Made by a program: the position numbers. Below, piece after piece: positions 12,001 to 15,000 of a stretch of DNA of 18,349 nucleotides. This DNA comes from a virus (lineage: Duplodnaviria > Heunggongvirae > Uroviricota > Caudoviricetes): positions 1 through 18,349 of IMG/VR virus record IMGVR_UViG_2654587685_000017, one strand, 5' to 3'. Position 1 is the first letter of the stretch. Each line of letters begins with the position of its first letter.

Positions 12001-15000
12001 GGAAACATGAATAGAGCCCTTTCACCAATGGTTTCTGAATTTGAAACCATTGAACAAGAAAACAGTTACAACGAATGGCTGCGTGCGAAAGTAGCAACGA
12101 GCCTTGCAGATCCGCGCCCAGCAATTCCCCATGACGAAGTTGAGCGCAGAATGGCAGAACGCTTTGCTAAGATGCGCAAGGAACGGAGCAAGCAGTAAAA
12201 TGTTACCCGTGTTATGGCTTGAAAGCGCAGATACCGACCTAGATGATATAACTAGTTATATTGCTCGTTTCGACATAGATGCGGCTGAACGCTTATGGCA
12301 GCGATTAAGGGGTTGTGTGCTGCCGTTATCCGAACATCCGTATTTATACCCACCAAGCGACAGAGTACCTGGCTTGCGTGAGATTGTAGCCCACCCTAAC
12401 TATATAATTCTATACCGCGTAACAACATCAAGCGTTGAAGTAGTAAACGTGATCCACGCAAGACGCCAGTTTCCCTAACTTTCACTACCAATAGAAACAT
12501 AACAACCGCAACGACTTTATCAAAAGCGTTGTGTTTGTTATGTCCCGCGGTTTAGTTTTTACTTGACTTAAGTTTAATGTTTATTAAACTAAAAATACCA
12601 ACCCACCCCGCCCCACAGAACGCAGGGAAATACTTCGAGTTACCCGGCAGTGGTCAGGGGTTAAGTAGCCAGCCCGAGGCGTATGAACATGACGGCAGGG
12701 TTCAACTTTAATAACTATGCAGCAGGTTTTTGTTCCGCTACCCCGGCGTTAAGGGGAAACAGAGGGTTTCTCAGTGGGCGAAGTCAAACATCAGAATGGA
12801 AGGCATCCCGGGATCGGCAAAGAAGCAGCAATGGCGCTTTATATTGACATCAGCGCCATTGCAGGACAGGTAAGAGTTATCAGAGCGGTAACTAAGCGGT
12901 ATGCGCCTTTACTTCAGAAAGTCTCTGGTGAGTGCACCGAAGATATTGTCAACGATTTCGTCATCGAACTGCGAGGACTCATCTTCAGTTACAAGGTGAC
13001 CACAATTTTTGCAGATGGCTCCCGCGAAACTGTCAGAGCCCTGCGGCTTAAAGGATGTGTCAAAGACTTCGCCACCACATTCTGGGCAAGAAAACTTGAT
13101 TGTATTCATAACCAATTTCCTCTCGAGTAACAGACCCCTCAGAGGATACCACCTCGCCTGACGTGGTTAAAAGCAGGCAACGCTAACCACAAGGAGCCGA
13201 CATGCAGAAACGAGAACCCGTCATCATCGCGCCAGACTATACCGATGATGAACTTTATGAGTGGATGCACCAGAAAATTAATGCAGCGCAGGATCTGAAA
13301 TGGGCCAATGAAGCCAGGGCTAAGCAGGCTGAAAATCTGTCCGCTCTGGAGCAGGATATCACCAATCTGGAAAAAGCAGCGGCATTAAGCATTGCCAGAA
13401 TGATTACATACCCGCGTTAATAGCTAACCAACGAAGCTAAGGTTGGTAATTAAGGAGTTCTCCACGGGTGAGGTGGAGTGCGTGCGCCGGACACGGGTGA
13501 GCATACGGCACTGACAGTTTACTGAAAGGATATTTCCCTGAAAAGTCAGACCATAACGCGAAAGCGCACGGCGAGGTAGCTGGTTCATAGATAGCCTGTC
13601 GTTAAATTTTCGTCGACCGTGCGCTTCCGGTTGTGGCAATCCGCGAAATGGCGCGGCGGTAAGTATGGAGGGGTTATTCCTTCCCCCGTTGAGGACACCG
13701 GGTTGTCAGGTTGACCATACGCTTAAGTGACAACCCCGCTGCAACGCCCTCTGTTATCAATTTTCTGGTGACGTTTGGCGGTATCAGTTTTACTCCGTGA
13801 CTGCTCTGCCGCCCTTTTTAAAGTGAATTTTGTGATGCGGTGAATGCGGCTGAGCGCACGCGGAACAGTTAAAACCAAAAACAGTGTTATGGGGGGATTC
13901 TCTGTATCCGGCGTTAATTGTTAACTGGTTAACGTCACCTGGAGGCACCAGGCACCGCATCACAAAATTCATTGTTGAGGACGCGATAATGAAAACGTTA
14001 TTACCAAACGTTAATACGTCTGAAGGTTGTTTTGAAATTGGTGTCACTATCAGTAACCCAGTATTTACTGAAGATGCCATTAACAAGAGAAAACAAGAAC
14101 GGGAGCTATTAAATAAAATATGCATTCTTTCAATGCTGGCCCGTTTACGTCCGATACAAAAAGGATGCTGCACAATGAATACAGCATTTGCACTTGTTCT
14201 GACAGTTTTTCTTGTTTCCGGAGAGCCAGTTGATATTGCAGTCAGTGTTCACAGGACAATGCAGTAGTGTATGACTGCAGCAACCGAACAGAAAATTCCC
14301 GGTAACTGTTACCCGGTCGATAAAGTTATTCACCAGGATAATAACGAAATCCCGGCAGGTCTTTAAAACAGTTCCGTAATAAATATCCGGTTTCATTCTT
14401 ATATGCCAGCAATGGCAGGGATTTGTTCACCCTTAAATCTGTAATGAGGTTAAAACAAAATGAGTAAAGTCTTTATTTGCGCCGCCATTCCGGACGAACA
14501 GACAACAAAGGAAGAAGGCGCAGTCGCTGTAGCCACAGCCATTGAAGCCGGCGACGAACGCCGCGCCCGAGCAAAATTTCACTGGCAATTCCTGGAACAT
14601 TATCCGGCTGCTCAGGACTGCGCTTATAAATTTCTTGTCTGCGAGGATAAACCCGGCATACCCCGCCCTGCCCTCGATTCATGGGATGCTGAATATATGC
14701 AGGAAAACCGCTGGGATGAGGAGTCTGCTTCCTTTGTCCCGGTTGAGACTGAATCAGATCCGATGAACGTCACTTTTGACAAGCTGGCCCCTGAAGTACA
14801 GAACGCTGTCATGGTTAAGTTCGACACATGTGAAAACATCACCGTTGATATGGTGATTAGCGCGCAGGAATTGTTGCAGGAAGACATGGCAACATTCGAC
14901 GGACATATCGTTGAAGCGTTGATGAAAATGCCAGAAGTTAACGCCATGTATCCGGAGCTTAAGCTGCATGCCATCGGGTGGGTTAAGCATAAATGTAAGC

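What the first reader, a model, noticed from the sequence alone, without database searches (positions are those of the whole stretch)
12774..13130. Overlapping antisense ORF pair; the antisense one is a Cys4 zinc-ribbon protein facing the immunity module
Between the OL-like operator cluster and ydfC both strands have an SD-preceded ORF. The minus-strand 66-aa ORF has a non-random paired CxxC zinc-ribbon signature and the more host-like codon usage, but runs against the early-left operon and converges on parE2. If real, it is an antisense-encoded small zinc-binding protein in the position where lambdoid phages often carry exclusion or accessory genes.
Basis: seen in the sequence. Interest (0 to 1): 0.5.

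Follow-up and report, generated by a model that had tools for sequence, protein, structure and literature searches.

The report
Two genes on opposite strands
A 66-residue zinc-ribbon gene lies wholly inside, and antisense to, a roughly 99-residue prophage gene, and comparison of many relatives shows that both reading frames are kept by selection, which is rare and directly testable.

Summary
The minus-strand ORF 12909-13109 encodes a 66-aa Cys4 protein. It belongs to NCBIfam NF047912 (ECs_2282 family) and is already annotated by PGAP. The plus-strand ORF is also real, but it starts at ATG 12831 (99 aa), not at GTG 12774.

Comparative DNA from two independent subfamilies (37 and 44 unique sequences) shows a switch in codon periodicity exactly at the zinc-gene stop codon:
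- In the 26 plus-only codons, plus third positions evolve fastest (38/26/59 and 38/26/66).
- In the overlap, zinc-frame third positions evolve fastest (119/27/64 and 118/26/50).

Zinc-synonymous changes are biased toward conservative changes in the plus frame (P=0.0002 and 0.04). The reverse bias also holds (P<0.0003). Control genes show no such bias.

Both ORFs, each with a start codon and in most lineages a recognisable ribosome-binding site, persist down to about 29% identity in Escherichia, Klebsiella, Enterobacter, Citrobacter, Yersinia and Brenneria prophages. They occur in early-left, early-right and baseplate operons. The long ORF always runs with the operon and the zinc gene always runs against it. 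AlphaFold gives the long protein pLDDT 90 with no known structural neighbour.

I conclude this is an old, mobile, antiparallel overlapping gene pair. A lysogeny/lytic mutually exclusive expression switch is inferred, not shown.

The parts
12909..13109 (-). Zinc-ribbon gene, 66 aa plus stop (ECs_2282 family). Cys4 at residues 8, 11, 33 and 36, an acidic linker TEDESSQFDDE, and a predicted C-terminal helix.
   Evidence: NCBIfam NF047912, 57.3 bits against a cut-off of 37. PGAP annotates it. Third-position-rich substitution in this frame: 119/27/64, replicated at 118/26/50. Start and stop columns are identical in all subfamily-1 homologues, and the same architecture is present in the remote lineages. 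Conditional test P<0.0003.
12831..13130 (+). Long ORF, 99 aa plus stop (phrog_21318; RefSeq WP_001240336.1 in other strains). It contains the whole zinc gene in antisense.
   Evidence: phrog_21318, E=4e-67. PGAP calls it where the zinc ORF is broken. It stays open in every lineage examined. Zinc-synonymous changes are conservative in this frame, P=0.0002 and 0.04. AlphaFold pLDDT 90, pTM 0.73.
12831..12908 (+). The 26 N-terminal codons of the long ORF that lie outside the overlap.
   Evidence: Parsimony steps by plus codon position are 38/26/59 and 38/26/66 in the second subfamily. The 8 codons upstream give 28/22/24.
12828..12862 (.). Hairpin with an 11-bp stem and 13-nt loop. On + RNA it buries the long-ORF AUG. 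On - RNA it lies 47 nt past the zinc stop and is followed by a partly U-rich tail.
   Evidence: Free energy -19.9 and -21.0 kcal/mol, z -3.5 and -4.2. Equivalent hairpins occur in other lineages, some with changed pairs.
12978..13004 (.). A 27-nt block almost invariant at all three codon positions. It reads LIFSYKVTT in the plus frame and CGHLVTEDE in the minus frame.
   Evidence: 5 parsimony steps in 27 sites across 37 unique sequences, of which only 2 fall on the nine zinc third positions, against about 1.8 per zinc third position elsewhere.
13118..13123 (-). Ribosome-binding site AGAGGA of the zinc gene.
   Evidence: Read from the sequence. Equivalent AGGA-type sites lie before the ATG in most other lineages.
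13143..13170 (-). Promoter-like element of the zinc gene: TTAACC, 16-nt spacer, TATCCT, preceded by TGG (extended -10). It sits inside a conserved block with inverted repeats.
   Evidence: The block is conserved across subfamilies 1 and 2. It was identified by eye, not by the scanner, and function is inferred.
12563..12590 (+). Early-left (dicB-operon) promoter-like site, TTGACT-16-TAAACT. It would transcribe the long ORF, ydfC, dicF and dicB.
   Evidence: Consensus scan. Gene order from PGAP and Rfam.

Best explanation
Both ORFs are protein-coding genes that share the same DNA on opposite strands. They form an old cassette that moves between phage operons.

The 66-aa zinc-ribbon gene (12909-13109, minus) has its own ribosome-binding site and a conserved promoter-like element. 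It is the more strongly constrained partner inside the overlap. The 99-aa gene (12831-13130, plus) is read with the surrounding operon. In this window it is the first cistron after the early-left promoter-like site at 12563-12590, ahead of ydfC, dicF and dicB.

Inferred mechanism, not shown here:
- In a lysogen the operon promoter is repressed, so only the zinc gene can be transcribed, toward the immunity region.
- When the operon fires, transcription crosses the cassette in the other direction and makes the long protein.
- That transcription opposes the zinc gene by polymerase collision and by fully complementary RNA.
- The two products are therefore made in mutually exclusive states and probably act in one pathway.

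The biochemical function of either protein is unknown. The zinc protein is probably a small metal-stabilised binding module followed by a helix.
For: Shown by the analyses here:
1. The frame of fastest substitution switches at the zinc stop codon in two independent subfamilies (pairwise comparisons).
2. Among 112 and 108 zinc-synonymous substitutions, the long-frame change has mean BLOSUM62 0.79 against 0.06 expected (P=0.0002) and 0.56 against 0.29 expected (P=0.04). None creates a long-frame stop, against 5.4 and 2.2 expected.
3. The reciprocal test for the zinc frame gives P<0.0003 in both subfamilies. Five ordinary control ORFs give P=0.23-0.88.
4. In simulations with selection on the zinc frame only, the long frame stays open in all leaves in at most 1 of 400 runs.
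5. Both ORFs are intact in the same register at 29-34% identity (remote phage homologues) and in the deeper Yersinia and Brenneria members. They occur in early-left, early-right and baseplate contexts across Klebsiella, Enterobacter, Yersinia, Brenneria and Rac-like E. coli prophages.
6. The long ORF has an ATG, and in most lineages a ribosome-binding site, at the equivalent place.
7. AlphaFold gives the long protein pLDDT 90, including the non-overlapping helix.
8. The long ORF runs with the host operon in every context.
9. A promoter-like block upstream of the zinc gene is conserved across subfamilies.
Against: - No transcript, ribosome-footprint or protein data were available, so expression of either strand is unproven here.
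- The AlphaFold confidence could partly reflect covariation mirrored from the zinc frame. Only 2 of 5 models were confident.
- Part of the conservation in the non-overlapping N-terminus coincides with the arms of an RNA hairpin.
- The conditional test is only marginal in subfamily 2 (P=0.04).
- The stop-avoidance statistic also came out low in one control gene (P=0.004), so it is weak on its own.
- The zinc ORF carries a nonsense codon (E14*) in a widespread E. coli prophage lineage and a stop at codon 44 in one other sequence, so it is dispensable there.
- In the baseplate-context loci a strong terminator abuts the long-ORF ribosome-binding site. This complicates the idea that the long ORF is simply read with the operon.
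- The mutual-exclusion mechanism is inference only.
Confidence: 0.68

Rival explanations
1. Only the zinc-ribbon gene makes a functional protein. The long ORF is kept open and translated merely so that ribosomes cover the operon transcript while it crosses an antisense insert, which would avoid Rho-dependent polarity. Alternatively its apparent conservation is a mirror of zinc-frame constraint.
For: Constraint inside the overlap is dominated by the zinc frame. The C-terminal tail of the long ORF shows no periodicity (40/34/33), and its start and stop positions vary between lineages. The long ORF always runs with the operon. No structural neighbour was found for the long protein.
Against: The 26 non-overlapping codons show third-position-rich substitution in two subfamilies, which a mere translated spacer does not predict. 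Zinc-synonymous changes are biased to conservative long-frame replacements while controls are not. AlphaFold gives pLDDT 85-95 over the non-overlapping helix.
Confidence: 0.17
2. Only the long ORF is a real gene. The zinc ORF is a shadow ORF that stays open because this antisense register is the one that most easily lacks stops.
For: Phage annotators and Prodigal-type gene callers usually call the long ORF. The zinc ORF is interrupted in a common E. coli lineage while the long ORF stays intact. No sampled sequence shows the opposite pattern.
Against: Within the overlap, long-frame first positions evolve about twice as fast as long-frame third positions (119 against 64, and 118 against 50). This is the opposite of what coding in the long frame alone predicts. 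All four Cys, the start and the stop are fixed in all lineages. Long-synonymous changes are conservative in the zinc frame (P<0.0003). The zinc profile finds 66 clusters of mostly 60-75-aa proteins with the same layout.
Confidence: 0.06
3. The conservation is mainly at the nucleic-acid level (structured RNA, antisense regulator or DNA site) and neither ORF matters as a protein.
For: A 27-nt block is almost invariant at all codon positions. Hairpins are conserved at both ends of the cassette.
Against: Strong three-base periodicity is present in both regions. Substitutions are conservative at the amino-acid level in both frames. There is no Rfam match. Protein similarity persists where DNA similarity is lost.
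Confidence: 0.04

Closest known systems
NCBIfam NF047912, ECs_2282 family putative zinc-binding protein
   Same: The minus-strand protein is a member. It matches the HMM end to end above the cut-off and has paired CxxC motifs. PGAP names it so in hundreds of E. coli genomes.
   Different: The family name says nothing about function. Nothing available here records that the gene lies inside a conserved antisense ORF.
PHROG families phrog_21318 and phrog_29546 (unknown function)
   Same: The plus-strand protein matches phrog_21318 over its full length (E=4e-67). The baseplate-context relatives match phrog_29546.
   Different: These are treated as ordinary single genes of unknown function. The embedded zinc gene is not annotated in those phage records.
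Antisense overlapping genes described in E. coli O157:H7 (nog1, laoB, ano, asa, pop) and Pseudomonas aeruginosa
   Same: A protein-coding ORF lies antisense to, and embedded in, another coding ORF (PMC5810103, PMC5960689, PMC7103648, PMC8850804, PMC9927249; listed).
   Different: By their titles and abstracts, those cases are evolutionarily novel ORFs, one described as arising by overprinting, inside annotated genes, and they were found through expression data. Here both partners co-vary down to about 29% identity, travel together between operons, and the embedded gene is the more constrained one. This locus has no expression data. It appears only as one row in a bulk BLAST table of Zehentner et al..
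Pseudomonas phage Fc02 olg1 / gene 10 pair (PMC9936078)
   Same: It is a temperate-phage lysis-lysogeny region. A small gene transcribed in the lysogen overlaps, on the other strand, a gene of the lytic operon that follows the early regulator.
   Different: There is no sequence relation. In Fc02 both products were shown to exclude superinfecting phages. Nothing is known about function here.
Lar (RalR) restriction-alleviation family, TIGR03655
   Same: A small prophage-encoded CxxC...CxxC protein found in early-left regions.
   Different: The score is 15.7 bits against a cut-off of 39.6. PHROG Lar-like hits are only E of about 0.01 to 0.0007. It is not a member, and the resemblance is generic to zinc ribbons.
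PADLOC candidate defence protein PDC-M14A and phrog_4852
   Same: The zinc ribbon plus helix aligns to the N-terminal half of these longer profiles. E=1e-6 for the Rac-like relative and 2e-3 for the window protein against PDC-M14A, and 1e-9 against phrog_4852.
   Different: Those proteins are 150-190 aa with an extra C-terminal part. Their functions are also unknown, so this is only a lead toward a defence-related role.

Membership tests
NCBIfam NF047912 (ECs_2282 family) | Whole-protein HMM score above the curated cut-off of 37 bits | tested here: met
   57.3 bits, E=1e-15, residues 4-59 on profile positions 1-56 of 60.
NCBIfam NF047912 (ECs_2282 family) | Two CxxC pairs in a protein of about 60-70 aa | tested here: met
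   C8, C11, C33 and C36 are invariant in near and remote homologues.
NCBIfam NF047912 (ECs_2282 family) | Zinc binding | not testable with these tools
   Only the motif is seen. The AlphaFold model of the 66-aa protein was poor (pLDDT 55).
Functional antiparallel overlapping gene pair | Both ORFs intact and co-conserved across divergent relatives | tested here: met
   Both are intact in the same register in 37 plus 44 unique sequences and in remote lineages from six genera. The exceptions are the nonsense variants of the zinc ORF and rare frameshifted long-ORF variants seen only as proteins.
Functional antiparallel overlapping gene pair | Purifying selection detectable in each frame independently of the other | tested here: met
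   Periodicity switch. Conditional BLOSUM tests: long frame P=0.0002 and 0.04, zinc frame P<0.0003 twice, controls not significant.
Functional antiparallel overlapping gene pair | Transcription and translation of both strands | not testable with these tools
   No expression data were accessible. No paper in the library reports it.
Lar / RalR restriction alleviation (TIGR03655) | HMM score above the cut-off of 39.6 bits | tested here: not met
   15.7 bits, E=0.014.
Type I toxin-antitoxin (small toxin with cis-antisense RNA) | Small hydrophobic or otherwise toxic peptide whose mRNA is opposed by a non-coding antisense RNA | tested here: not met
   The 66-aa protein is acidic and soluble-looking, not membrane-like. 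The opposing strand is a conserved coding ORF rather than a small RNA. Toxicity was not tested.
Moron (independently transcribed prophage accessory gene) | Own promoter and terminator flanking the gene, placed between phage operon genes | tested here: inconclusive
   A conserved promoter-like block with an extended -10 lies upstream and a stable hairpin lies downstream. The consensus scanner reported neither, and the hairpin tail is only partly U-rich.

The most novel reading that the evidence does not exclude
The cassette is a self-contained two-state switch. Two antagonistic proteins are written on opposite strands of the same 200 bp. The zinc-ribbon protein would be made from its own promoter in the prophage state. 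The long protein would be made only when a lytic operon reads through, and that read-through would silence the zinc gene by convergent transcription and RNA pairing. This would be a new kind of sense/antisense protein pair, for example an exclusion or toxic effector with its lytic-phase antidote, that spreads among phages as a unit.
Probability: 0.2. Interest if true: 0.85.

Novelty: new variant of a known kind. Interest (0 to 1): 0.62.

Why it matters
Whether bacteria and phages keep functional genes on both strands of one stretch of DNA is still disputed. Most proposed cases are young, weakly expressed, and lack clear comparative support.

This pair gives comparative evidence for selection in both frames, replicated in two subfamilies. 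The overlap has been inherited down to about 29% protein identity and carried between unrelated operon contexts. It sits in well-studied E. coli O157 and Rac-like prophages, where single-base changes can knock out one frame while remaining silent in the other, so the question becomes directly testable.

It also exposes an annotation problem. RefSeq names only the zinc gene when it is intact, and phage records name only the long ORF, so each database hides one partner.

Tried and rejected
- The species-level genome scan with the zinc alignment gave only two chance matches.
- The first IMG/VR scan returned only near-identical copies. Diverged DNA had to come from exact-protein look-ups, tblastn against phage records and a second IMG/VR scan.
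- An alignment of remote zinc-ribbon representatives was too diverse to scan. A narrower one found nothing in viral contigs.
- The single metagenome scan gave mostly unrelated zinc-finger proteins (aRF1-like, IleRS, MqsA-like) and one truncated true relative. Whether zinc-family members outside Enterobacterales also carry the antisense ORF therefore remains open.
- AlphaFold of the zinc protein with 10 sequences was unusable (pLDDT 55).
- Pfam gives only sub-threshold generic zinc-ribbon hits.
- Literature searches for ECs2282 found nothing in main texts.
- GTG 12774 was rejected as the plus start.
- Stop-codon avoidance was downgraded as stand-alone evidence because one control gene also showed it.
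- Lar/RalR membership was rejected.
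Full report
**What is there**

The window is a lambdoid prophage next to potC. PGAP annotation of an identical E. coli chromosome gives this gene order on the plus strand: cI-like gene, relB, relE/parE-family toxin, a gap, ydfC, dicB, DUF1482, exonuclease, xis, int. One gene lies on the minus strand in the gap, named 'ECs_2282 family putative zinc-binding protein'.

Rfam places DicF at 13763-13814. A sigma-70-like site, TTGACT-16-TAAACT, at 12563-12590 faces rightward. The plus direction is therefore the early-left, dicB-type operon.

The two ORFs of the finding are present:
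- Plus 12774-13130: 118 aa from GTG, or 99 aa from ATG 12831.
- Minus 13109-12909: 66 aa, sequence MNTIKFSCPECGG...CKNCGH..., preceded by AGAGGA.

They share one codon register. Plus position 1 faces minus position 3, the second positions face each other, and plus position 3 faces minus position 1. A change that is silent in one frame therefore usually alters the other, which lets the two frames be told apart.

**Database status**

The 66-aa protein passes NCBIfam NF047912 at 57.3 bits against a cut-off of 37. Pfam gives only sub-threshold generic zinc-ribbon hits.

The plus protein matches phrog_21318 over residues 20-118 (E=4e-67). Phage records and Prodigal-type gene calls mostly carry this long ORF.

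RefSeq annotates the zinc gene where it is intact. Where the zinc ORF has a nonsense codon, RefSeq annotates the 99-aa plus ORF instead (WP_001240336.1, starting at the position equal to 12831). In one strain with a 2-bp insertion it is marked as a frameshifted pseudogene. The two are never annotated together.

No paper in the library discusses the locus. It appears only as one row of a bulk BLAST table of embedded antisense ORFs in Zehentner et al..

**Homologues**

Protein searches found both ORFs kept open down to about 60% identity in Citrobacter, Klebsiella and Enterobacter. DNA for these came from exact-protein look-ups.

A tblastn search of phage records with the zinc protein found full-length relatives at 29-34% identity in Klebsiella and Enterobacter phages. 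In each of these the annotated or longest ORF is again on the opposite strand and spans the zinc ORF.

A profile of the long ORF retrieved 87 protein clusters, including Rac-like E. coli, Yersinia and Brenneria members. DNA for the deepest of these shows an intact Cys4 ORF antisense in the same register every time.

A profile of the zinc protein against 1.84 billion representatives found 66 clusters, mostly of 60-75 aa. They share one layout: zinc ribbon, then a T-E/D-D-D/E motif, then a C-terminal helix.

**Contexts**

The cassette occurs in several settings:
- After a cI-like gene and relB/parE, ahead of ydfC-dicF-dicB (this window).
- After dicA.
- After an S24-type cI.
- Before kilR-ydaE-recE in Rac-like prophages.
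- Between cI and cIII in Yersinia.
- After cro in the early-right operon of Citrobacter and Klebsiella prophages.
- Between the spike-apex gene and the sheath-initiator gene of myovirus baseplate operons, or between a KilA gene and the baseplate genes in Klebsiella phage KP12.

In every case the long ORF runs with the surrounding operon and the zinc gene runs against it. In one Enterobacter prophage, sieB lies directly upstream of the zinc gene on the same strand.

**Selection: substitution pattern**

An ungapped codon alignment of 37 unique sequences covers window 12807-13133. It was analysed by minimum spanning tree and by parsimony on a neighbour-joining tree. A second, independent subfamily of 44 unique sequences came from a second IMG/VR scan. 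Parsimony steps by plus (long-ORF) codon position 1/2/3 were:

| Region | Subfamily 1 | Subfamily 2 | Reading |
|---|---|---|---|
| Just upstream of the long-ORF ATG (8 and 3 codons) | 28/22/24 | 6/10/6 | no periodicity |
| 26 plus-only codons (12831-12908) | 38/26/59 | 38/26/66 | long-frame third positions fastest |
| Overlap (66 and 69 codons) | 119/27/64 | 118/26/50 | zinc-frame third positions fastest |
| Long-ORF tail past the zinc start (subfamily 2) | not tabulated | 40/34/33 | no periodicity |

Pairwise comparisons between the remote loci agree with this pattern. Coding in the long frame alone cannot give the overlap pattern. Coding in the zinc frame alone does not predict the N-terminal pattern.

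**Selection: conditional tests**

Each frame was then tested while holding the other constant. 'Observed' and 'expected' are the mean BLOSUM62 score of the change in the frame under test.

| Substitutions examined | Subfamily | n | Observed | Expected | P |
|---|---|---|---|---|---|
| Zinc-synonymous, effect on long frame | 1 | 112 | 0.79 | 0.06 ± 0.16 | 0.0002 |
| Zinc-synonymous, effect on long frame | 2 | 108 | 0.56 | 0.29 ± 0.15 | 0.04 |
| Long-synonymous, effect on zinc frame | 1 | 66 | 0.80 | 0.03 | <0.0003 |
| Long-synonymous, effect on zinc frame | 2 | 57 | 0.89 | 0.11 | <0.0003 |

Expectations come from randomisation stratified by transition and transversion. None of the zinc-synonymous changes creates a long-frame stop, against 5.4 and 2.2 expected.

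Five ordinary ORFs from the same loci, tested against their own antisense frames, gave P=0.23-0.88. One of them nevertheless showed stop avoidance at P=0.004, so I treat stop avoidance as weak evidence on its own.

Simulations used selection on the zinc frame only, the prophage's own codon usage, and calibration to the observed zinc third-position change. In this prophage TCA is 26% of Ser codons and TTA plus CTA are 31% of Leu codons. The long frame stayed open in all leaves in at most 1 of 400 runs.

A 27-nt block (12978-13004) is almost invariant at all three positions. This fits double constraint.

**Signals around the genes**

Every lineage has an ATG at the equivalent long-ORF start, and most have a good ribosome-binding site. 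The site is weak in the window's own family.

The zinc ATG and stop fall in the same alignment columns throughout subfamily 1. The remote lineages keep the same architecture.

Upstream of the zinc ATG lies a conserved block carrying TTAACC-16-TATCCT with a TGG extended -10 (window 13170-13143, minus strand). It also carries interleaved inverted repeats. It is shared by subfamilies 1 and 2, and a Rac-like relative has two compensatory changes in one repeat.

An 11-bp hairpin at 12828-12862 has free energy of about -20 kcal/mol and z of -3.5 to -4.2. On the plus RNA it buries the long-ORF AUG. On the minus RNA it lies 47 nt after the zinc stop. Equivalent hairpins exist in other lineages. Part of the N-terminal conservation coincides with its arms. 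However, codons 11-26, which lie outside the arms, are still third-position-rich (25/19/45, from the table).

**Structure**

With 42 sequences, AlphaFold models the 99-aa protein at pLDDT 90 and pTM 0.73. The elements are a strand at 5-6, helices 8-28 and 33-48, a hairpin at 51-59 and 65-73, and a helix at 77-95. Two of the five models were confident. No solved or viral structure resembles it.

The hairpin region mirrors the zinc knuckle region, so mirrored covariation could contribute to the confidence. The non-overlapping helix is nevertheless also confident.

The zinc protein, with only 10 sequences, gave pLDDT 55. Sequence alone indicates a zinc ribbon, an acidic linker and a C-terminal helix. 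It aligns weakly to the N-terminal half of the PADLOC candidate PDC-M14A and of phrog_4852. It fails the Lar family threshold.

**Natural variants**

A common E. coli lineage (PPompW-type prophages, about a sixth of the rows sampled) has TTC to TTA at 13070. This gives E14* in the zinc gene and F80L in the long ORF, which stays intact. One sequence has a zinc stop at codon 44. No sampled DNA sequence has the long ORF interrupted with the zinc ORF intact. Frameshifted long-ORF variants appear among the protein hits.

**Interpretation**

Shown:
- Both frames are conserved and constrained.
- The overlap is old.
- The cassette is mobile.
- The orientation rule holds in every context examined.

Inferred:
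- The long ORF is expressed with the phage operon, which is silent in a lysogen.
- The zinc gene is an independent unit that can be expressed in the lysogen.
- Convergent transcription and complementary RNAs make their expression mutually exclusive.

Antisense control of this general sort is established for lambda PRE/cro and oop/cII and for P22 sar/ant (my own knowledge). A lysogen-gene/lytic-gene antisense overlap with exclusion activity has been reported in Pseudomonas phage Fc02 (PMC9936078).

The proteins' functions are unknown. I estimate about 0.68 that both are functional proteins and about 0.2 that they form an antagonistic switch. The main rival is a translated-spacer role for the long ORF (0.17). 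Coding in the long frame alone (0.06) and an RNA-only explanation (0.04) are poorly supported.

**Verdict**

What appears to be new is that its antisense partner is also a conserved gene. That makes this a deep, mobile antiparallel overlapping pair, a new variant of a known but rare and contested kind. It can be tested with frame-specific single-base changes.

Noticed in passing
window 13143-13180 (minus strand); L086, L089, L091, L097, L106, L114 upstream of the zinc ATG: A conserved block of about 35 nt, GCCTG(T)CTTTT(A/C)ACCACNTCAGGC..GGTGGTAT. It carries promoter-like hexamers and two interleaved inverted repeats (GCCTG/CAGGC and ACCAC/GTGGT) in pseudoknot-like order. In L106 the first repeat is CCCGG/CCGGG, which is two compensatory changes. 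Part of it loosely resembles a boxA sequence. There is no Rfam match.
   Followed up: partly
L086, L089, L091, L097, L101, L114 just before the zinc ribbon-binding site; window 13118-13146: A hairpin next to or overlapping the zinc gene's ribosome-binding site. Its loop is conserved (GTTCTCACACA) and its stems co-vary (CTTGG/CCAAG, GCTGG/CCAGC, CTCTGG/CCAGAG; TCCTCT/AGAGGA in the window). It is unclear which strand's RNA uses it.
   Followed up: partly
L099 and L106, about 20-80 nt upstream of the zinc ATG: A direct repeat, TCCCCAACAG, occurs twice in the Enterobacter and Rac-like subfamily in place of the block above. It could be a regulator binding site.
   Followed up: no
L098 about 3260-3300 and L105 about 3960-4000 (long-ORF strand): In the baseplate-context prophages a strong intrinsic terminator (CCTCGC-loop-GCGGGG followed by T6-7) ends only about 10-15 nt before the long-ORF ribosome-binding site. 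The transcription source of the long ORF and of the downstream baseplate genes is therefore unclear.
   Followed up: no
window 12007-12478: A relB / relE-parE type II toxin-antitoxin pair sits between the cI-like gene and the early-left promoter-like site. This is the position lambda uses for rexAB.
   Followed up: no
window 13763-14021: DicF sRNA (76.7 bits) is immediately followed by a sub-threshold match to the sRNA family STnc100 (39.7 bits against a gathering score of 47).
   Followed up: no
L001 3350-4985 (about window 6849-8484): The prophage carries a convergent pair annotated 'beta family protein' and 'sce7726 family protein', next to hokD. It looks like an accessory or defence-type insert.
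   Followed up: no
L089 3323-3823: A sieB (superinfection exclusion) gene lies directly upstream of the zinc gene on the same strand in an Enterobacter hormaechei prophage. This hints that the zinc gene can belong to a lysogen-expressed exclusion unit.
   Followed up: no
L086-L088 3995-4519: In Citrobacter freundii prophages the long ORF is extended upstream to 174 aa. The extra 80 codons have no counterpart elsewhere, so the true start is probably the internal Met aligned with 12831.
   Followed up: no
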